A stretch of 64,000 bases of DNA, from contig JAXLQT010000008.1 in the NCBI GenBank assembly GCA_046331505.1, positions 150,969 through 214,968 on the forward strand, in the 5' to 3' direction. Position numbers and translations under genes: made by a program. Below the pieces are notes generated by a model that searched no databases, was not told where the DNA came from, and saw only the letters and a program-made list of their open reading frames with translations. The DNA is from Acidobacteriota bacterium. Its GTDB lineage: Bacteria; Acidobacteriota; Vicinamibacteria; JAXLQT01. Positions 47,061-57,170 of this stretch are shown here, piece by piece (positions within the stretch are counted from its first letter, which is position 1; each line of letters opens with the position of its first letter).

Positions 47061-47380
47061 CGTGACCCAGTGCCTGAGGCATCCGCCGCAGAGCGAACCG
47101 ACGCGCTCGAGCGACGGGATGGGATCGCTTCGCCGAGTCGAGAGGTCGAAGTAGGGGCTCGGGTGTGCGGACGGCGGCGAGGCGCACGGGATCGCCGCGG
47201 ATGTCGGCGACGAGGCGGCCGGCCGTCGCATTGCCGGCGTCGAGCTCCAGGAATCGCGCGGCTAGCGATGGTCGCGATCGTCGCGAGAACACCACGCGCG
47301 GCGGCGGCCTGAAAGGCAGGCGTCGCGGCGATCGATGCGACGCCGGCGCACATCGCGGTCGCGTACCATCGCTCTTCGTG

Positions 47381-50300
47381 GTGGACCGCAGGCGTCAGAT
47401 CGGGCCCTACCGCGTGCTGAGACCGCTGGGGCAGGGAGGGATGGGGATCGTCTACGAGGCGTTCGACGTGCGGAGCGCGGCGCGCGTGGCGCTGAAGGTG
47501 GTGCGCGTCGGAGACGGGGCGACGGTCGGATCGATCCGGCGTGAGATCGCGGCGCTCGCGACGCTTCGCCATCCGGGCATCGTGCGCATCGTCGACCAGG
47601 GGCTCGTGGATGGTCTGCCCTGGTACGCGATGGAGCTCCAGCGCGGGACGACGCTCGCCGATCACGTCGTGGGCTTGATGAGCGGGGACGTGCCCTCGCG
47701 GCCCTCGGACGGGTCGGACGCCACCGAGCAGCTGAGCGGCGCGGACGCATGGCTCGGGGGCGGGCAGGCTCCCGGCGACGTCGTCCCGGGCCCCAAGCCC
47801 GAGGCCGCGGGCGGGGCGCTCGTCGCCGTGCTGACGCTCCTCTCGAGGCTCTGCGCGCCAATCGGCTACCTGCACGGCGAGGGTCTGGTTCACAGGGATC
47901 TCAAGCCGTCGAACGTCGTCGTGAGACCGGATGGGACGCCGATCGTGATCGACTTCGGGATCGCGGGTGCCGGAGGAGGCGCGCGCGAGGTGCTCGACGT
48001 GGACGCGCCGGTCGTGGGGACGGCCGCCTACATGGCGCCCGAGCAGGTACGCGGCGACCCGCCCGACGCGCGGGCGGATCTCTACGCCTTCGGGTGCATT
48101 GCCTACGAGCTCGTCACGGGCCGGACGCCGTTCCGGGGTGAGAGCGACGCCTCCATCCTCCACCAGAAGCTCCAGGGAGCTCCGGAGGCGCCGTCGTCGC
48201 TTGCGACGGGCGTGCCGCCCGGGCTCGATGCCCTCATCCTCTCGCTTCTCGCGGGCGATCCGCGCGATCGCCCCGGCTACGCGGACGACGTCGCGCGGGA
48301 GCTCAAGGGGCTCGGCGCGGGGGACCTGACCTACCAGGCCGTGCGGGCCCGCCCCCACGTCTACCGACCCTCGCTCCACGGCCGCGCCGCGGATGGCGTT
48401 GCAGCCCGACGCCCGCATCCCGGCGCGCTGCGGGACGGTCGTGGAGCATGGTCGTCTCCGAGGGCGAGAGCGGCCTCGGCAAGACGCGTCGCGATGGAGG
48501 CGGCGCGCGCGGCCGCTCAGGGGATCCTCGTGTCGCGGGATCCTGATCGCGATGGCGCGTCGCCGCTCGGCGGGGTCTCCGAGGCGCCATCGGCTCGGTC
48601 CGTGGAGCGGTGCCGGAACAGCGACGACGCCGATCGTTTCCCGGACGGCGCGGCAAGATCCGGCGGCCGTCGATCCGGCGCTTCGCGATCTCCCCGGACA
48701 GTCCCGGCACGCATCCGCCGGAGCTGCCGGAGGCCGGGAAGCAGCGCGTCCTCGCTGCGCTCTGGGACACGTTCGTCGCGCTCGGGCAACCGGTCCTTGG
48801 TGATCGACGAGACGCCCAGGGCGGACCCGCTGACGGCCGACGCCCTCAACTACCTCGAGCGCGTCCGGGAGCACTGCTCGCCAAGGGCTCTGCTCTTCGT
48901 GTTGACGATGCGTCCAGACGGCTCCGGAACCGCTCCTCGCCTTCCCGGCGGCCGGGGTGAGGAGGCTCGCCCTCGAAAGCGCGGCCGACGACGACATCGG
49001 AGACGTCGCGGCAAGGAGATGCTGGCGCTTCCGCGCGCGTCGGGACCCAGAAGTGGGTGTCCTCCTGCTCGACGATCGGCGGGCATCTGTTCTTCGCGGC
49101 GAGTACGTGCGGGCGGCCCTGGCGCTGGCGCACCTTCACCAGATGCGGACGGTCACTGGCAGGCTGGCGCCGGGGATGATGTCGCGGCGAATTGAGGAGC
49201 ATTGCCCGAGCCCGCCGGTGCTGTGGAGATCGAGGGCCTCCTCGCCCGGAGGCTCCATGCCCTCTCGCCGTCCAGCCGCCGTCGCCGGCGCGCATCCTCC
49301 AGTCCTGCCGCGAGGTCGACCCGTCCATCGTCGCCCGCGATGGAGGCGGACGACCTTCTCCACCAGGAGGGGCGGAGCTGTGCGCTCGCGGGGTGATGGA
49401 GGAGTGCCGGGGCGGTCTCCATCGCCTGGAGGAGCGCCTCGTCGGGCTCGCGTATGCGGCGCTCGATCCAACGCTGCGGCGCGCGCATCACCGTCGCGCC
49501 GCCGAGGCGATCGTGGCATCGCGGCCTGGGACGGTGGAGCTGGGACGGCAGGAGGGGTGCGGAGAACGCGCCCGCGCCGGAGCTGCTACCTCGAGGCGGC
49601 GTAGTACGCCCGCTCGCGCTACTCGCTCGCGGAGTCGGCGCGGCTCCTTCGGCTGCGTATTCGACATTCCGCCTTCGGCGGAGGCGCGCTTCCAGCCATG
49701 CTGACGCGGCCGGCGCGCGCATCGGAGGAGCTCGGATACGGGGTCCTCTCGACGCTCAAGAGCTCGCGGAGGCCGAGGAGCAGTGCCTGCGGGCGTGCCG
49801 CCGACGCGGCCTCGATGCGCGGGGAGGCGCCGCGCGCCGAGGACTCGAGCTCGAGGGCCGTGCGCTTGGCGCGCTCGGGACCGTCGTGTCGACCACGGGA
49901 CGCTCCCGGCGAGGCGCGGGACCTCATGGAGCGTGCTCGGCGTTCTCTCGTCCACGTTCGAGCGCGACCGCGCTGCGCGTCCACGTCGACCTCGGTGTCC
50001 AGTCCTGCAGTCTCTCGATGGCGGAGCTTGCTCGCGAGAGTACGCACGCGTTGACGCTCGCCGAGCACCTGGGCGATCGCGCGACCGAGGGTCGCATCTT
50101 CGCCAACCTCGGCACGAGCAGAACCAGGGGCGCGTCGATCGCGCGGCCTTCGCCTTCGAGCGGGCATCGAGATCCACCGCGAGATGGGCAGCGGCGGCCT
50201 CGGCCTACGCGCTCGGATCTCGGTGCGCTGCACGCCAGCCAGGGCGCCTTGACGATGCACGCCGTCTCTACGAGGGACGCTGTCGGGACGTTCCGGGACG

Positions 50301-50935
50301 TCGGCGATCTCGGCGAGGGCCGTTCTCCTCAACTCGGTAACCTCTGCTGGCACCTCGGGGTGATCGGCGCTGCGACGGAGATCACGAGCGTGCCCTGCGC
50401 GATCATGCGCCGCAGGACGATCGACGGTGCGAGTGGCTGGCCGTCGGCAATCTCGCGTCTGGACGTCTGGACGAGGGGCGCGTGGACGAGGCGTGGAGAT
50501 GTTCGACGAAGCTCTCCGCCTCGCTCGCGAGATCGCGACCGCCGCTTCAAGGCATCTGGCCGCGACCTCGCGGGGTGCTGCTGCTCGCAGGTGATGTGGA
50601 GGCCGCGTCGGATCTCGCGGGCGCGGCGATGCGCGTCCTCGAGGAGATCGAGGAGCCGCTTCGTCGGTCTCACGGCCTGCGTGCGCGGCGAGATCGCGCT
50701 CGAGCGGGGCCAGGACGCGCGCGATCATGCGGGAACGGCACGGGCGATCGCCGCGCGTATCGGAGCGGACCCGGAAGCGGGCTCGGCTCCAGCATCTCCC
50801 GACTCGAGCGCGCGATCGAGGCGTGCGCGCGGCGAGAGGATCGTGCGGGGCGCGCCTGCTGTCGATCATCTGCAAAGGGCCGTGCTGGCGGCTCTCCACA
50901 CACCATCGCGGCGCCGAGGGGGCGGCGCCAAGTGA
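47381..50935 (+). pseudogene. Ser/Thr protein kinase fused to AAA-ATPase and TPR region (PknK-like architecture); many frameshifts
   Basis: GTG 47378/47381. Intact kinase domain (GQGGMGIVYEA, HRDLKPSNVVV, DFGIA, AYMAPE). Downstream, the Walker A SEGESGLGKTR and the TPR-like segments are scattered across all three frames up to TGA 50933-35. Confidence 0.5.
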
Positions 50936-53900
50936 CGGCGAGCGCATCGCCAGGGTCGGTCCGTATCGCATCCTTCGCGCGGCGGCCGCGGCGGCATGGG
51001 AGTCGTCTGGCGCGATGCATCGCGGATAGACGCGCGTCGCGCGGCGCCTGGGCGTCGCGGTAGACGACGCCGTTACGGTGCGGCGCCATCCGCGCCAGAT
51101 CGCGACGTCGTCGGCTCTCCCATCCCGATCGTCCGCGGGTCGATCAGGACTGTTCGAGGAGATGCCGTGTACGTGATGGAGCTCGCCGAAGGGACGACGC
51201 TGTCGGACTACGTCGATGCCTTCGGTTGCGAGCCGAGCCCGACGGCGAAGGGCCGACGCGACGGAGCGGCTCGCCCGACCGATGCCACGCGCGCTGATCG
51301 GCGCCGGCGGACGGCGTGGGGACGCCGCGCGCGACCTGGCGGCCGCGGGAGGAGCTCTCCGCTGCCGTGCTCACCTTGATCCGACGTCTCTGCGTTCCCT
51401 TGCGATACCTTCACGGCGAGGGGTTCGTCCACCGGGACCTGGAACCGTCCAACGTCATGGTCACGGCGGACGGTACGCTCGACCCGGGATCGACTTCGGG
51501 ATCTCGGCGCCTGCATGGAGACGCGCGGGAGATCCACGTCGGCCGTCGGTCACGGGGACGCTGGCCTACATGGCGCTGGAGCAGGCGCGCGAGACCTCGT
51601 GACGCGGGCGGACTACGCGCTCGGGTACTCGCCTACGAGCTTCATCGCCGAGGCTGCCAGTTCCTCGGCGATGCACCGATCGCGGTGCTGCACCAGCACC
51701 AGGCCGTGAGAGCCTGCGCCGCCCTCCGCGCTCGTGGACGGCGTGCCCCCGGCTCTGGACGCGCTCGTGCTGTCGCTTCTCTCGAAGGAGCCGCGCGATC
51801 GCCCCGCCTACGCCGACGACGGCGCGCGCTCTCGGGCGGCTCGACGCGGCGGACGTCGGCTACGACGCTCCGCGGCCACGGGCGTACGTCTACCGTCCGG
51901 CGCCTGCGGGTTGGACGATGCCCTGCGCAGAGCTCCGTGTGGTGCCGTCGCGCGGCTCGAAGCTCCGCGCCGGGGCAACGCCCTGCTCGCGTCGGAGATG
52001 GCATGGGCAAGACGCGCGTCGCGATGGAGCCCTGCGAGCGGCGCCGGTGATGCGAGGATCGCCGTACTCGTGGCGCGTTGCGATCGCGGCACCTCGGAGC
52101 TCCTGGCGCCGTTCCGGGCTGGTCTCGACGTACTCGCGGAGCGAATTCAGGAACGAGGTGGCGGAGTCGATCGTTTGCCCGGGAGCCGCGCGAAGGTCCT
52201 CGCAGCCTACGCACCCTCGCCGCGATCCTCCTGGGCATCGGCCGGCACGCGGATCCGGAGGAGCTTCCGGAGCGGCCGGAAGGAGCGCGCCGTGCGGATA
52301 GCTCGCGAGACGATCGCGGCGCTGGCGCGCGAAACGCTGGTGCTCTTGATCGTGGAGGACGCGCAGTGGGCGGATGCGCTCATCATGTCGGGCGATCGAG
52401 CACTCCGGCGGCTCGAGCATGGATCCGGCGCCGATCCTCGATCCTGACGTACCGCGAGGACGAGGCGCCGTCGGCTCCGCGCGCTGGCCCGGGGCGGCGG
52501 GGTGAGCGCGGTGAGGTTCGGCGCCGCTCACGGAGGACGAGGTGGTGCTTCCGTGGGGGAGATGCTCGGGCTCGCGAGGTCGCCGGCGCTTGGGGTCCTC
52601 GGCGGAAGCGTATTCGAGAACTCCGTTCTTCCTCGGCGGCATGCGCGCGGCGATCGATCGGGGCGTCCTGACGCGTGACGACGCCGGTCGCTACTGGATC
52701 GGCGCCGGCGAGGCCGTCACCGAAGCGGCCCTCGCCGCTCTACGGTGCCCCGCGCGATCGAAGATCTCGTCGCGTCGCGCCTCGATGGGCTCGGAGGATG
52801 CGTCGAACCTCTGCGGCATCGCGTCGGCCTCGGCCGCGATTGCAGATGCCGAATTCTCGCAGCCGTGGTCTCGACTGGAACGATCTCCTCGGTGCCTGGG
52901 CAGAGCTCTGCGCCCGGAGGGTCGTCGAGGAATCGGGGCGCGACGGATTCCGCCTTCGTCCACGGGCGGCTGCGAGACGTTGCGTACGAGCGGCTTGGTC
53001 CTGGCGCGGATCGATCTCGGCATCGCGGAATGCGGCAGCCATGGCCGCGGGCGGGGCGCGCCGCGTCCTGACCACGAAGGAGCTTGGCCGCCACTGGGAG
53101 GGAGCGGGCGAAGGAAGTGTCGCGCCGCGCGCCAATTTCCACGAGGCCGTGGACGGGTCTCCGTGGCGCGGTACGCGCGGGCGGGAGCGGAGGCCACTAC
53201 TGCGCGGCCATCGCTTCCGAGGACGACGCGCGCGAGCGTGCGACCATGCGCCTCGAGCTGGCCGGCGAGGCGTTGCTCCGCCGCGGCGCCCTCAGGAGGC
53301 GGAGGGCGAGGCGGCGGCGGCGCTTTCGAAGCCACGGGGCTTGGCGATCCCCTGCTCCACGCGCAAGCGCAGCCGGAGTCGCTCGGTTCCGCGGTGATGG
53401 AGCTCGGGAGGATCGACGAGGCGCGCCATCACTTCGAGGCGTCCCTGCACCTCCTTCGCTTCATCCGGCTCCCGAAGCGTCGATCGCGGGCGCGCGAGGC
53501 GCCTCGCGGACGCCCTCGACCTCCTGGGAGAGGTGGCCGCGGCGCGAGCGCACTTCGAGGCCGGCGGCCCGCGCCTGCGAGGCGACGCGGTTTCGCGCAG
53601 CGACGTGCCTGGGTCCCCGGCAGCGAGAGCAGGACGCGGCAGGTCGACACTCGACGCCAGCGCTACGAACAGGCGCTCGCCATGGACCGGTCGCGCGGCG
53701 CGCGCCGGGCCGAGGCCGCGGCTGGACCAACATTGGCAACCTCGAGACGACGCAGGGCAACCTCGGGCGCTGGGCTGCGAGCTTCTCGAGCGGGCAGCAT
53801 CGATCCCTCCGGGAAGATCGTGATCCGCGGACGGAAGGCATCGCCCAGAACCTCGGTGCACGCCAATGCGGAGCGGGGCGATGTGGCCGCCGAGCGCGAT

Positions 53901-54386
53901 CACGATCGCGCCGCGGCCATCGCGCGCCGGGTCGGAGATCGCCGGCTCGAGGGCATCGTTCTCGGAAACAAGGCGATTCTGCAGGAGGACGCCGCGCAAC
54001 TCGTGGAGGCGAGTGCGGCGCGCCTTGCGGCGCTCGCGATCGCTCGCGAGCTAGGCGACCGCCTGTTCGAGGGGATATGGCTGCGCGACCTCGGCGGGCA
54101 GCGCTGCCGGGAGGGCGCATACGGCGAGGCCGGCGATCTCCTCGACCAGGCGGAACGCATCTTCGTCGACCTCGATCAGAAGCTCCATCTCGGCTTCACG
54201 ATCTGCGAGCAGGGGCGTCTTGCGCAGGCCCGCGGAGGCTCCGCGCGCGACCACGTCGCGCGCTCGAGGGAGATCGCGCGGACGCTCGGCGCCGGACCGG
54301 ACAGCGCGCTGGGTGGCAAGATCGCCGATCTCGCCAGCGGGGAGGATCAGTATCCCAGGGCGGCCGAGGACACGTTGACGCCGTAG
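50932..54386 (+). pseudogene. second Ser/Thr kinase-AAA-TPR gene; extremely frameshifted
   Basis: Fragments GPYRILR, GMGVVWRDA, VYVMELAEGTTLSDYV, YLHGEGFVHRDLEPSNVMV, the DFG-region and a TPR-like C-terminus ending ...GEDQYPRAAEDTLTP* (54386) occur in successive frames, every 50-150 nt. Confidence 0.4.
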
Positions 54387-54420
54387 CCGCCCGGGAAACG
54401 GAGTGACGCTGGCGCCGGGG
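54347..54420. repeat. direct repeat copy A (about 85% identical to 54962..55030)
   Basis: tatcccagggcggccgaggacacgttgacgccgtagccgcccgggaaacggagtgacgctggcgccgg versus tacccgagcgcagccgaggacgcgttcacgccgtagccgcccgggaacggagtgaagctggcgccgg. Read on the minus strand it encodes ...FPGGYGVNVSSAALGY*. Confidence 0.7.
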
Positions 54421-54519
54421 CCATGCGGGAGCCCGGATCTCGTGTATCCAGCGGAGAGCACGTTGAGCTCACCACGGGAACACGACCGGCAGTCGAGCGT
54501 TCGACGTCGAGCGTGATCG

Positions 54520-54926
54520 CGTACGTGAAGCTTCCTTGCAAGCCGGTGCACGGAGATCCAGAGGGCTTCGAACAGGGCGGCGATCCCACGATGGGTGCCC
54601 GTGGTTCCCGTCCGGATGACGGAAGCATGGCTTCTGATTGACGAGAGGGCGATCCGCCTCGCGGCAGGAACCCCGACGGCCGCGTTGCCCTGGGGATTCC
54701 ACGGCCTGCGGCACTCGAGGGGCTCCCGGATCCGAAGACGTCGCTCCGCCGAGCGCTCGAGACTGCGGGGCAGAAGCGAGGGCGGCATCTGAAGCGATTC
54801 AAGCGGGACATCGATGAGCGGATCGAGCGCGTGGCGGAGCTGATCGAGAGTTTCGAGCGACTTCGCCAGCTATCTGCCTTCGCGGCATTCGAAACCGCAA
54901 CGCACGACATTGTGGCGAACATGTGA
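54520..54926 (+). pseudogene. remnant ORF in a lower-GC insert, possibly the DUF4276-like C-terminal half
   Basis: ...RMTEAWLLIDERAIRLAAG... and ...LRRALETAGQKRGRHLKRFKRDIDERIERVAELIESFERLRQLSAFAAFETATHDIVANM* in two frames. No start or N-terminus. GC is visibly lower than in the flanks. Confidence 0.25.
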
Positions 54927-54961
54927 TCCCGTGCTCACGATCCCGAGCGCAGAGCCGCCGA

Positions 54962-55030
54962 TCAATACCCGAGCGCAGCCGAGGACGCGTTCACGCCGTA
55001 GCCGCCCGGGAACGGAGTGAAGCTGGCGCC
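54962..55030. repeat. direct repeat copy B (3' end of the Kelch/FG-GAP gene)
   Basis: See copy A. Here it is the genuine 3' end (...FPGGYGVNASSAALGY*) of the gene 54962..57170. Confidence 0.7.
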
Positions 55031-57170
55031 GGCGGGTACGAGCGCGGATCCCGAGTAGGCGAAGGAGAGCACCGTCGAGGTCGCCACGGGATCACGACCC
55101 GCGCCGGTCAGAAGCTCGACGTCCGAGTTGCCGTCGACGTCACCGCTCCCGACGCGCCCGCCGTAGTACGTCGCAAACGGCGTGACGGCGAAGCCCGGCA
55201 TCGCCGTCACGGTGGCGCCGGCCACGTCGAAACCGACGAACTGCGAGGTGAGTGCGGGCCCGGGGCCGGGCGTGGCTGCGAGCTCCGCGAGGCCGTCGCG
55301 ATCGAAGTCGCCCGCGGCGACGTTGACGCCGAACTGCGGCGGCAAGAACGCCTGGAACGATGCTCCGACGGCGATGGCGTCGTCGTCGTAATCCCAGGTG
55401 CGCACCTGCGGCGCGAAGACCGGGGACGGTCCCGCGCCGGTGACGATCTCCGCGTAGGCGTCGCCGTCGATGTCGCCGCCGCTCGCGTTGACGCCGTAGC
55501 GCGGCGTCGCGTAGGCGAAGAAGCTGACGCCGGGGATCGGCGCGACGGCGACCCCGTCGTACGTGAACGCGCGGACATGGGGTCCGAAGACGGGCCCCGG
55601 TCCCGCACCCGTGACGACCTCCGCGAAGGGGTCGGTGTCGATCGACGCGGCGGCGGCGTTGACGCCGTAACGCAGCGTGCCGTAGGCGAAGAAGGTGACC
55701 TTGGAGATCGGCGATCCGTCGAATCGGAAGCCGCGCACGTGGGGTCCGAGCGTGGCGCCGGGTCCAGGCCCGGTCACGATCTCGTCGTGAGCGTCGGGAT
55801 CCACGTTGCCGCCCGAGACGTTGACGCCCCAGCTCCCCGCCGAGTAGGCGCGGAAGTCGACGGGGGTCGGCGCCCCGGTCTCGTCGTAGGCGGCGACGCG
55901 GTTCTCGTTTCCGGGTCCGAGCCCCTCGCCCGTCACGTAGTCGGGAACGGGCGTCACCTCGAGCACGTAGCGTCGCGAGCCCGCGTTCCCGCCCCCGTCG
56001 CTCGCCCGTACGAGGAAGGTCGCGGTCGATGCGATCGCAGGCGTTCCCGAGAGGACGCCGCCGGCAGACAACGTGAGCCCGGCAGGAAGGGATCCCGCCG
56101 TGAGCGCGAAGGCGCGAGGGGCAGATCCGCCAGTTGCCGCGAGCGTGATGGCGTAGGGCCGGCCGATCACGGCGCGCGGCAGCACCGGAGGATCGATCGC
56201 GATCGTCTGGTAGAGCCACGTGTCGGCCTTCGACTCCGCGCCGTCGTAGCCGCCGAACAGGATGAGACCGCCCGCCTCGGGGAAGGCCGCCATTGCGAAG
56301 CTCTCCCGCGCGTCGAGCGCCGGACCCGCCGTGGCGCCCGGGGCCCAGGCGGTGCCGTCGTATTCCCAGGCGTCGTTGACGTACCCGGTCGCGGTCTTGC
56401 CGCCGAAGGTGACGGAGAGCGCCCGCGCGGCGTCGTAGGCGATCGAGGGCCAGAACCGCGGCACCATGCCCGCCGGTGGAGGAGCGCCGGGCGACCAGGC
56501 GATGCCGTCGTACTCCCAGGTGTCGTCGAGCGGGGTCGTGCCGTCGTTACCTCCGAAGATCACGATCCTCGATCGTGCGGCGTCGTAGGACATGCAGATT
56601 GCGTCGCGCGCCGTCAGCCCCGGAGGCGCGGCGGGTCCGGGGAGCCACGCGACGCCGTCCATCTCCCACGTGTCGTTCCTGGGTCCCGACGAGTCCTTCC
56701 CGCCGAAGATCACTGTCCGCGAGCGCGGGGAGTCGAAGGCGGCGGCGAGACTGTGGCGCGGCGAGCCCGGGTGGCGCCGCTGGACCCGGCGTCCAACCCG
56801 CGGCGTCGTATTCCCACGTATCGTTGTACTCGACGATCGAGTCGTCCCCGCCGAAGAGGATCACCTTGGCGCGGGCCGCGTCGAAGGCCATCACCGGACA
56901 GTCTCGCGGCGTGAGGCCTGGCGGGCCCGGCGCCTGGAGCGTCCACGAGATGCCGTCGTGCTCCCAGGTGTCGTTCATGTAGCTCGCCCCGAATCCGCCG
57001 AAGAGGACGACACGCTTCCTCGCGCTGTCGTACGTCATCGCATGGCCCGCGCGTGCGAGCAGGGCCGCGGGCGCGGCACCGTCGCTCCGCCAGAAGGGAG
57101 AGGACGACGCTCCCCGCGCGATCGCGAGGATCCCAAGGAACGCCGCCGGGCGGAACGCCGAGGCTGCCAT
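54962..57170 (-). pseudogene. exported Kelch-repeat (galactose-oxidase-like beta-propeller) plus FG-GAP/VCBS-repeat protein; 1-2 frameshifts near 56560-56760
   Basis: ATG 57170 with signal peptide MAASAFRPAAFLGILAIARGASS. Repeated ...FGG.DG...NDTWEYDG..W... (Kelch) units. C-terminal repeats GVNV..GD.DGD..AEIVTGAGPGP (FG-GAP). The N-terminal 200 aa are in a different frame from the 583-aa ORF. Confidence 0.55.

What the first reader, a model, noticed from the sequence alone, without database searches (positions are those of the whole stretch)
54347..55030. Duplicated gene 3' end brackets a lower-GC ~0.5 kb insert carrying a start-less ORF remnant, and overlaps the kinase stop in antisense
The last ~70 nt of the Kelch/FG-GAP gene (54962..) recur with about 85% identity at 54347-54420. 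In that second copy the same sequence, read on the plus strand, supplies the final 12 codons of the STK-AAA-TPR gene (...GEDQYPRAAEDTLTP*). Between the copies lies a lower-GC segment encoding fragments of a protein (EAWLLIDERAIRLAAG...; ...KRFKRDIDERIERVAELIESFERL...) with no start codon. A direct repeat flanking foreign-looking DNA is the footprint expected from an insertion/deletion or recombination event, for example the remnant of an integrated or excised element. It also creates an unusual sense/antisense sharing of coding sequence.
Basis: seen in the sequence. Interest (0 to 1): 0.55.

Follow-up and report, generated by a model that had tools for sequence, protein, structure and literature searches.

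The report
Scar of two dead gene fragments
The 0.6 kb between a kinase gene and a secreted-protein gene is a rearrangement scar, made of a decayed copy of the neighbour's last ~55-60 codons joined to the broken back two-thirds of an anti-phage-type gene, so it is ordinary genome debris and not a working element.

Summary
Window 54345-54490 (weakly to ~54534) repeats 54960-55102, the 3' end of the minus-strand Kelch/He_PIG/FG-GAP gene. Identity is 116/147 aligned columns with 5 gap columns; the alignment scores 63 against a null maximum of 16.5.

Copy A is a dead stub. It has frame-breaking indels and no upstream gene body. Among 120 family members it is closest to the adjacent gene.

The DNA between the copies (54535-54927, + strand) is residues ~81-215 of a ~210-aa DUF4276/HEC-01B TOPRIM-like protein (PADLOC E 3e-21; 71% identical to an intact homologue). 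It has one frameshift and no start codon. Its first ~80 residues are missing, and its ABC-ATPase partner is absent from the whole window.

The kinase-AAA-TPR ORF does end 13 codons inside copy A. That is not dual coding, because the minus-strand reading is dead.

An independent assembly of SRR26348421 reproduces A, the insert and B exactly. It removes the frameshifts the window shows in 53563-53995, so the kinase gene's "pseudogene" look there is probably consensus error.

Origin is unresolved. Either a lost tandem paralogue was cut down by a deletion (my preference), or an element integrated as e14 does in E. coli icd and later decayed. No close relative is available to decide. Interest is low.

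The parts
54960..55102 (-). Copy B: the last ~47 codons, stop codon (54962-54964) and 2 nt beyond, of the intact Kelch/He_PIG/FG-GAP gene. Weak homology to copy A continues to ~55150.
   Evidence: Pfam Kelch, He_PIG and FG-GAP hits on the gene product. 100% match to NCBI MAG protein P0001.
54962..57170 (-). Kelch / He_PIG / FG-GAP-like secreted-protein gene. In the window it reads in two frames (57170-~56745 and 56713-54962). NCBI annotates it as two CDS of 207 aa and 533 aa.
54345..54534 (-). Copy A: decayed stub of the last ~55-62 codons plus stop codon of an FG-GAP family gene. It is solid to 54490 and weak to 54534. Relative to B it has a +1 indel at ~54397, a 3-nt indel at ~54418-54420 and a -1 indel at ~54460. 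It has no upstream gene body.
   Evidence: blastx/tblastn: best match among 120 family members is P0001 (60% over 55 aa, E 3e-9), all others <=27 bits. Identical in the independent contig L006.
54535..54927 (+). Relic of a DUF4276 / HEC-01B (TOPRIM-like) gene. Homologue residues ~81-128 are in one frame (54535-54678) and ~126-215 in another (54669-54927), with the native stop at 54925-54927. A 1-nt deletion lies near 54672 (GGAA(A)CCCC). There is no start codon and the N-terminal ~80 residues are absent.
   Evidence: PADLOC HEC-01B E 3.2e-21, profile 110-210/217. Each frame hits separately. Pfam DUF4276 E 4.7e-4, below the gathering score. Exhaustive phmmer: 1263 hits. P0391 is 71% identical. 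tblastn frames.
54928..54961 (.). 34-nt spacer between the convergent stop codons of the DUF4276 relic and the FG-GAP gene.
   Evidence: No terminator-like or promoter-like site in 53800-55400.
50975..54386 (+). Second of two tandem Ser/Thr-kinase-AAA_16-TPR genes (STK2). Its ORF ends at TAG 54384-54386, 13 codons inside copy A. Family homology stops at ...GGKIADL (~54332).
   Evidence: In the Logan version the last 290 codons form one clean frame.
53563..53995 (.). Patch where the window differs from the independent contig L006 by 32 difference blocks, most of them indels. The L006 version is in frame.
   Evidence: GC1/2/3 of the L006 ORF are 0.80/0.51/0.87.
54347..54922 (-). 191-aa ATG ORF running through copy A and antisense to the DUF4276 relic. 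I judge it a shadow ORF, not a gene.
   Evidence: No Pfam or PADLOC hit. Its first codon position has the lowest GC, which fits + strand coding instead. It was called only on the Logan contig, not in the NCBI record.

Best explanation
The locus is a non-functional rearrangement scar.

Shown:
- Copy A is a frame-broken, body-less stub of the 3' end of an FG-GAP-family gene. Its nearest relative is the adjacent gene.
- The DNA between A and B is the 5'-truncated, frameshifted back two-thirds of a DUF4276/HEC-01B gene, and its ABC-ATPase partner is gone.
- A and the relic abut within a few nucleotides (54534/54535).
- The kinase-AAA-TPR ORF runs 13 codons into the antisense of A before it meets a stop.

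Inferred history:
1. The Kelch/FG-GAP gene once had a tandem paralogue just downstream, on the same strand, whose 3' end met or overlapped the kinase gene's 3' end.
2. A two-gene ABC-ATPase + DUF4276 cassette sat between the two paralogues on the opposite strand.
3. One deletion of roughly 3.5-4 kb ran from about codon -62 of the downstream paralogue to codon ~81 of the DUF4276 gene. It removed the paralogue's body, the ATPase and the DUF4276 N-terminus.
4. The surviving stub decayed, except perhaps the 40 nt that now encode the kinase protein's tail.

Nothing here is expected to act. The TOPRIM-type N-terminal motifs and the ATPase are missing, so the defence gene cannot work, and the direct repeat is only residual homology.
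For: - Repeat significance and extent.
- A is closest to the neighbouring gene and not to any of 119 other family members.
- Indels break A's frame relative to B.
- The family is greatly expanded in this MAG lineage, with several members per contig. True head-to-tail tandem pairs exist: L007, 946 aa and 945 aa genes 20 nt apart.
- In the last 17 codons, 6 of 7 A/B substitutions fall on third codon positions, while further in they are spread over all positions. This fits two coding copies diverging under selection in the conserved terminal motif (F.PF.G..YGVN...LGY).
- Relic identity, truncation point and frameshift.
- No ATPase trace in the 64 kb: tblastn with the L001 ATPase.
- The last 55 codons of the intact gene are not compositionally odd (GC3 0.84 vs 0.89, sd 0.047; 13th percentile). 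So there is no sign that copy B arrived with foreign DNA.
- An independent assembly reproduces everything from 53996 to 55702.
Against: - No related genome with the ancestral arrangement could be found, so the lost paralogue and the cassette's position are inferred, not seen.
- Homology starting exactly at the stop codon and spanning only the last ~55-62 codons is also what integration with 3'-end replacement gives (E. coli icd/icdC).
- The third-position pattern rests on 7 substitutions. It could also reflect selection on the kinase tail, because third positions coincide in the two overlapping frames (and my reading of the frames).
- This history needs one more event than the integration model.
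Confidence: 0.45

Rival explanations
1. Integration with 3'-end replacement, as in E. coli icd / e14 / icdC. An integrative element carrying the ATPase + DUF4276 cassette recombined inside the last ~55-62 codons of the FG-GAP gene. It brought its own copy of those codons (now B), so the gene stayed intact. The original end (A) was displaced and stayed attached to the kinase gene. A later deletion removed nearly all of the element, from A's inner edge to mid-DUF4276.
For: - The repeat runs from ~55-62 codons before the stop through the stop codon plus 2 nt. The checked precedent has the same geometry: icd's last 165 nt versus icdC, 92.7% identical, 11 of 12 differences at third positions.
- The bracketed DNA is a defence-type cassette relic at ~65% GC, as is the intact pair in L001 against a 70% contig.
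- The L001 context is not syntenic, which suggests the cassette moves.
- A 20-nt identical block in the family-wide conserved motif could have served as a core.
- It explains without an extra event why the kinase ORF ends inside A.
Against: - No integrase, excisionase or any other element gene is present, and only 427 nt remain between the copies.
- Identity is 79% with indels, against 93% and no indels in the precedent.
- Copy B's codon composition is ordinary for the gene.
- The intact cassette in L001 has no flanking direct repeat and no integrase within 10 kb.
- No extra 3'-end stubs lie next to family genes in L001 or L007.
- P0391 homologues are rare on plasmids: 2 records.
Confidence: 0.3
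2. Some other illegitimate event, such as a short patch of the nearby gene end copied into a break during repair, or a fragment acquired together with the DUF4276 piece. In that case copy A was never part of a working gene.
For: - Over the whole alignment, substitutions are 12 / 9 / 5 at codon positions 3 / 2 / 1. That is about what one neutral copy plus one constrained copy would give.
- A is flanked on both sides by breakpoints: kinase family homology ends at ~54332, and the DUF4276 relic starts at codon ~81.
Against: - The left boundary falls exactly at the stop codon.
- Third-position changes are concentrated in the terminal 17 codons: 6 of 7 there against 6 of 19 further in, one-sided hypergeometric p ~0.02 by hand.
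- The +1 and -1 indels compensate each other, so the terminal motif stays in frame with the start of the stub.
Confidence: 0.15
3. Assembly artefact: the A-insert-B arrangement, or its indels, is a chimeric join or consensus error in the MAG contig.
For: The same contig does carry an error-like patch only 350 nt away (53563-53995). Several family members from this MAG have out-of-frame C-termini.
Against: An independent contig from run SRR26348421 is identical across 53996-55702, including both copies, the relic and every indel. Copies only 79% identical would not be collapsed or joined by an assembler.
Confidence: 0.04
4. A working feature. Either a diversity-generating retroelement template/variable repeat pair at the gene's 3' end, or a real 191-aa gene or true dual-coding overlap.
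For: Direct repeats of ~150 nt at and just downstream of a surface-protein gene's 3' end resemble a VR/TR layout. The 191-aa ORF is open.
Against: - Mismatches show no adenine bias: on the coding strand A is the base in 6 of 26 (copy A) and 2 of 26 (copy B).
- The copies differ by indels.
- No reverse-transcriptase gene lies between or next to them.
- The ORF has no family hit and the wrong codon-position GC pattern.
Confidence: 0.02

Closest known systems
E. coli K-12 icd / cryptic prophage e14 / icdC pseudogene
   Same: A direct repeat made of a gene's last ~55 codons through its stop codon brackets inserted DNA. One copy completes the live gene and the other is a detached stub. I checked this here: 165 nt, 92.7% identity, 11 of 12 differences at third codon positions.
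   Different: - In E. coli a 15-kb prophage with intE/xisE lies between the copies. Here there are 427 nt with no recombinase.
- Identity here is 79% with three indels.
- Third-position bias is seen only in the last 17 codons.
- Whether integration made this repeat at all is unproven.
HEC-01 candidate defence system: HEC-01A ABC ATPase + HEC-01B TOPRIM-like protein (Pfam DUF4276). PADLOC; bioRxiv 10.1101/2024.01.29.577857
   Same: The insert's two reading frames together match HEC-01B models (E 3.2e-21). They also match ~210-aa DUF4276-type proteins over their residues ~81-215. The closest homologue, P0391, sits directly after a 472-aa AAA_15/AAA_21/AAA_23 ATPase.
   Different: Only the C-terminal two-thirds is present. 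It is frameshifted and start-less, lacks the N-terminal part, and no ATPase gene is in the window. The paper itself reports no protection by HEC-01 against the phages tested, so even the intact system is only a candidate.
Pseudogene stubs left by decay of tandem paralogues in expanded gene families
   Same: The stub is closest to the adjacent family member. The family has many copies per genome, and tandem pairs exist.
   Different: The full-length ancestor of the stub has not been observed in any genome.

Membership tests
DUF4276 (PF14103) / PADLOC HEC-01B | Significant match to the family profile | tested here: met
   PADLOC PDLC04210 E 3.2e-21, 74 bits. Each frame alone gives E 1.6e-8 and 2.7e-9. 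Pfam PF14103 reaches only 20.9 bits against a gathering score of 30.2, because just profile positions 84-159 are present. phmmer found 1263 hits; the best aligned to residues ~94-209 of ~215-aa proteins.
DUF4276 (PF14103) / PADLOC HEC-01B | Complete ~190-220 aa ORF including the N-terminal half, where the TOPRIM-type metal-binding residues are expected | tested here: not met
   tblastn with six full-length homologues covers only their residues ~81-215. Nothing matches residues 1-80 anywhere in the window. There is one frameshift and no start codon.
HEC-01 two-gene system | Adjacent ABC ATPase gene (HEC-01A) | tested here: not met
   The L001 ATPase (472 aa) has no tblastn hit in the window at E<1e-4. 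Copy A and the kinase gene lie immediately upstream of the relic.
Kelch / He_PIG / FG-GAP-like secreted-protein family (copy A as a member) | Homology to the family's C-terminal module, in one frame and attached to a gene body | tested here: not met
   Homology to the last 55 residues of P0001 is present (60%, E 3e-9). However, a +1/-1 indel pair shifts ~20 codons out of frame, and the sequence upstream is antisense DUF4276, not FG-GAP.
Integrative element with 3'-end gene replacement (icd/e14 type) | Direct repeat that equals the target gene's terminal codons through the stop codon | tested here: met
   Homology runs from 2 nt past the stop codon to ~47-62 codons upstream. Same geometry as icd/icdC.
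Integrative element with 3'-end gene replacement (icd/e14 type) | Integrase/excisionase and element-sized DNA between the repeats | tested here: not met
   Only 427 nt lie between the copies, and all of it is accounted for by the DUF4276 relic plus a 34-nt spacer. No tRNA genes in the window.
Integrative element with 3'-end gene replacement (icd/e14 type) | Differences between the two copies mostly synonymous, without indels | tested here: inconclusive
   6 of 7 differences are at third positions in the last 17 codons. Further in they split 6/8/5 over positions 3/2/1, and there are three indels.
Integrative element with 3'-end gene replacement (icd/e14 type) | Empty site in related genomes | not testable with these tools
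   The best non-self homologue of the target protein is 46% identical. Scans of genome contigs and metagenome contigs returned nothing.
Transposon insertion with target-site duplication | Short (2-15 bp) exact duplication and terminal inverted repeats at the insert ends | tested here: not met
   The repeat is ~150-190 nt at 79% identity. No inverted-repeat arms lie at 54510-54540 / 54930-54960.
Diversity-generating retroelement (TR/VR pair) | Mismatches confined to adenines of one copy, no indels, reverse transcriptase nearby | tested here: not met
   Coding-strand A accounts for 6 of 26 mismatches in copy A and 2 of 26 in copy B. The alignment has five gap columns. No RT gene is adjacent.

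The most novel reading that the evidence does not exclude
The FG-GAP family's conserved 3'-terminal motif is an attachment site for an integrative defence island in these Acidobacteriota, working like e14 in icd. The element would supply a replacement gene end, and the displaced original end would survive because it now encodes the last 13 codons and the stop of the neighbouring, probably intact, kinase-AAA-TPR gene. That would be a small case of a protein tail recruited from the antisense of a dead gene stub.
Probability: 0.25. Interest if true: 0.3.

Novelty: already known. Interest (0 to 1): 0.14.

Why it matters
It matters little biologically. It is one more example of how defence cassettes and members of expanded gene families are gained, cut down and left as fragments.

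It has two practical uses:
- It shows that a "duplicated gene end bracketing foreign DNA" signature can arise with nothing functional left, and that the same signature fits two different histories.
- It exposes a data-quality problem in this contig. The frameshift-ridden look of the kinase genes beside the finding is, at least in 53563-53995, contradicted by an independent assembly. Pseudogene calls in this window need read-level confirmation.

Tried and rejected
- **Orthologous-locus comparison.** The search for related loci with the FG-GAP protein in genome contigs gave 130 pattern hits but no relative. A degenerate DNA pattern for the shared C-terminus found nothing in genome contigs or metagenome contigs. 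An exact 33-mer from the relic found nothing in metagenome contigs. Exact-protein look-ups of P0001 and of the neighbouring 578-aa gene were not on record. No close relative exists in the protein database: the best is 46% identical.
- **"Kinase gene is an old pseudogene."** I first read the many frame changes and the weak GC3 that way. I withdrew it for the 3' 880 nt after the Logan contig gave one clean frame. The rest of STK1 and STK2 remains unverified.
- **The 191-aa minus ORF as a gene.** No Pfam or PADLOC hit and the wrong codon-position GC.
- **DGR template/variable repeat.** No adenine bias, and indels are present.
- **Transposon TSD/TIR.** Not seen.
- **RNA features.** No tRNA, no Rfam family at gathering score, no promoter- or terminator-like site.
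- **Compositional foreignness of copy B.** Not an outlier.
- **Extra 3'-end stubs or flanking repeats around homologous loci L001 and L007.** None.
- **Plasmid carriage of the DUF4276 homologue.** Only 2 large plasmids, which is uninformative.
- **NCBIfam.** No hits for the relic or the FG-GAP protein.

Full report
**Observation**

The window around the finding was read directly and scanned for repeats. The 3' end of the minus-strand gene at 54962-56713 recurs about 615 nt to the left.

- A gapped local alignment pairs 54345-54490 with 54960-55102: 116 matches in 147 columns, 5 gap columns, score 63.
- The same scoring of copy B against 1500 real segments of this GC-rich window gave mean 11.2, sd 1.4, maximum 16.5.
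- blastn within the window gave E 1e-28, and there is no third copy in the 64 kb.
- The first 53 nt are 87% identical. Weak similarity continues to about 54534/55150.
- Homology begins 2 nt beyond the stop codon of the minus-strand gene.

**What the repeated gene is**

The gene product has Kelch repeats, a He_PIG Ig-like domain and FG-GAP-like repeats.

- It is 100% identical to a protein of an NCBI Acidobacteriota MAG on a 237,754-bp contig.
- In the window the gene changes frame once, near 56745. NCBI annotates it as two CDS of 207 and 533 aa.
- Its C-terminal He_PIG + FG-GAP module belongs to a very large family in this lineage. The module is attached to many different N-terminal domains, and the family ends in a conserved motif, F.PF.G..YGVN...LGY.

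**Copy A is a dead stub**

- Translated on the minus strand, copy A ends ...FPGGYGVNVSSAALGY*, against ...FPGGYGVNASSAALGY* in the live gene.
- Relative to B it carries a +1 indel (~54397), a 3-nt indel and a -1 indel (~54460). About 20 codons are therefore out of frame.
- Upstream of ~54534 there is no FG-GAP sequence at all.
- Against 120 family members, A matches the adjacent gene best (60% over 55 residues, E 3e-9). Every other member scores 27 bits or less. No other family fragment is in the window.
- In the last 17 codons, 6 of 7 substitutions fall on third codon positions. Further in they are spread over all three positions.

**The insert is a broken defence-type gene**

- Joined, they hit PADLOC HEC-01B models at E 3.2e-21, profile positions 110-210 of 217. 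Each frame also hits alone.
- Pfam DUF4276 is matched at E 4.7e-4, below its gathering score, because only part of the domain is present.
- An exhaustive phmmer search found 1263 relatives. The best aligned over residues ~94-209 of ~215-aa proteins.
- tblastn with full-length homologues places their residues ~81-128 at 54535-54678 and ~126-215 at 54669-54938, in different frames. Nothing in the window matches residues 1-80.
- The frame change fits a 1-nt loss in GGAA(A)CCCC near 54672.
- The closest homologue, P0391 (71% identity), lies in an Acidobacteriota UBA4820 MAG directly after a 472-aa AAA_15/AAA_21/AAA_23 ATPase. Its neighbourhood shares nothing else with this window.
- That ATPase has no trace in the window.
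- HEC-01 is described as an ABC ATPase plus a TOPRIM-like protein. It is a candidate defence system that gave no protection in the phage assays reported. DUF4276 is also listed among partners of AAA15/21 ATPases in the PARIS paper.
- The relic's GC is 65.6%, only the 10th percentile for this window. The intact pair in L001 has the same ~65% against a 70% contig.

The stub A and the relic abut within a few nucleotides (54534/54535). The relic's native stop lies 34 nt from the FG-GAP stop.

**The kinase gene and the "antisense sharing"**

- Two Ser/Thr-kinase-AAA_16-TPR genes lie in tandem: ~47165-50935 and ~50975-54386. They are ~70% identical in the kinase domain.
- In the window both are spread over several frames. 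At first I read them as old pseudogenes.
- The 191-aa minus ORF over copy A turned out to be on record from an independent Logan contig of run SRR26348421.
- That contig equals window 53511-55702. It is identical from 53996 to 55702 but differs in 53563-53995 by 32 blocks, mostly indels.
- The Logan version reads as a single frame with 264-278 residues of in-frame homology to family C-termini (E 4e-38) and normal codon-position GC.
- So the window's frameshifts in that patch are most likely consensus errors or a minority allele, and the kinase gene may be intact.
- Its family homology stops at ...GGKIADL (~54332). Homologues carry 5-45 more residues after that point.
- Here the ORF continues ASGEDQYPRAAEDTLTP*, and the last 13 codons and the stop (54384-54386) lie in copy A.

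That overlap is real, but it is a live ORF running into a dead stub, not two functional readings. The 191-aa minus ORF has no family hit and its codon-position GC fits + strand coding instead.

**How it arose**

Two histories fit.

(i) *Lost tandem paralogue.*
- The FG-GAP gene had a tandem paralogue downstream. Tandem pairs of this family exist, for example in L007.
- An ATPase + DUF4276 cassette lay between the two paralogues on the other strand.
- One deletion from inside the paralogue to codon ~81 of DUF4276 left what is seen.

(ii) *Integration with 3'-end replacement.*
- An element integrated inside the gene's last ~55-62 codons and supplied a replacement end, as e14 does in E. coli icd.
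- I checked that precedent here: 165 nt, 92.7% identity, 11 of 12 differences at third positions, with a 15-kb prophage carrying intE/xisE between the copies.
- A later deletion then removed almost all of the element.

I lean to (i), for these reasons:
- Nothing of an element other than the cassette relic remains.
- The copies are only 79% identical, with indels.
- Copy B is compositionally ordinary for its gene.
- The intact cassette in L001 shows no integrase or flanking repeat.

The geometry of the repeat is exactly that of (ii), however, and (ii) needs one event fewer. Without a close relative the two cannot be separated, and none was found.

**Other readings**

- A diversity-generating retroelement is excluded by the lack of adenine-specific mismatches and by the indels.
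- A transposon target duplication is excluded by the repeat's length and the absence of terminal inverted repeats.
- An assembly artefact is unlikely, because an independent contig reproduces the arrangement.
- No tRNA, Rfam family, promoter-like or terminator-like site is present.

**Verdict**

The finding is real but ordinary. It is a scar made of a decayed copy of the neighbour's gene end and a truncated, frameshifted DUF4276/HEC-01B gene, with a kinase ORF that happens to terminate in the stub. The "integrated element" reading is possible but unproven, and the "dual coding" reading is not supported. Novelty: a known kind of thing. Interest is low.

Noticed in passing
window 53563-53995 (compare L006): The window differs from an independent contig of run SRR26348421 by 32 blocks, mostly 1-7 nt indels, while the next 1.7 kb are identical. 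The other version restores a single TPR reading frame. The MAG contig therefore seems to have error-dense patches in paralogous or repetitive genes, and apparent pseudogenes here need read-level checking.
   Followed up: yes
window 47165-50935 and 50975-54386: Two tandem Ser/Thr-kinase-AAA_16-TPR genes, ~70% identical in the kinase domain. In the window both are broken over several frames. NCBI calls only a 593-aa 'protein kinase' for the first. Whether these breaks are real is unknown outside 53511-54386.
   Followed up: partly
window ~56745 (minus strand): The Kelch/He_PIG/FG-GAP gene changes frame once inside a Kelch repeat (PPGLAAP.../...PRHSLAAAFDS). It is annotated by NCBI as two CDS (207 aa, MFN7972697.1, and 533 aa). 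The break is not at an obvious homopolymer and could not be checked against another assembly.
   Followed up: partly
window 54962-56200; proteins P0001-P0120: The C-terminal He_PIG + ~5 FG-GAP-like repeats module, ending in the near-invariant F.PF.G..YGVN...LGY*, is fused to many different N-terminal domains (Kelch, M14 and M23 peptidases, LamG, choice-of-anchor B, S8). It occurs in many copies per genome in these Acidobacteriota. It looks like a shared surface-anchoring or export module, but no Pfam or NCBIfam model names it as such.
   Followed up: partly
L001:8586-10627: An intact ABC ATPase (472 aa; AAA_15/AAA_21/AAA_23) overlaps by 4 nt a 208-aa DUF4276-type gene in an Acidobacteriota UBA4820 MAG. 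Both are ~64-65% GC in a 70% GC contig. No integrase or flanking repeat lies within 10 kb.
   Followed up: partly
L007:8594-14291: Two full-length Kelch/FG-GAP paralogues (946 and 945 aa) lie head to tail, 20 nt apart, in the UBA4820 MAG. Their C-termini are already very different.
   Followed up: partly
window 54397-54460: Copy A's +1 and -1 indels compensate each other. The start of the stub (DVERSTAGRVPVVSST) and its terminal motif are therefore in the same frame, and a 191-aa ORF stays open through the stub and the antisense of the DUF4276 relic.
   Followed up: yes
proteins P0035, P0037, P0095, P0115 (same or sister MAG contigs): Several family members from NCBI Acidobacteriota MAG contigs end in out-of-frame-looking, Pro/Arg/Ser-rich C-termini instead of the conserved motif. 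This again suggests indel errors, or real frameshifts, near the 3' ends of these repetitive genes.
   Followed up: no
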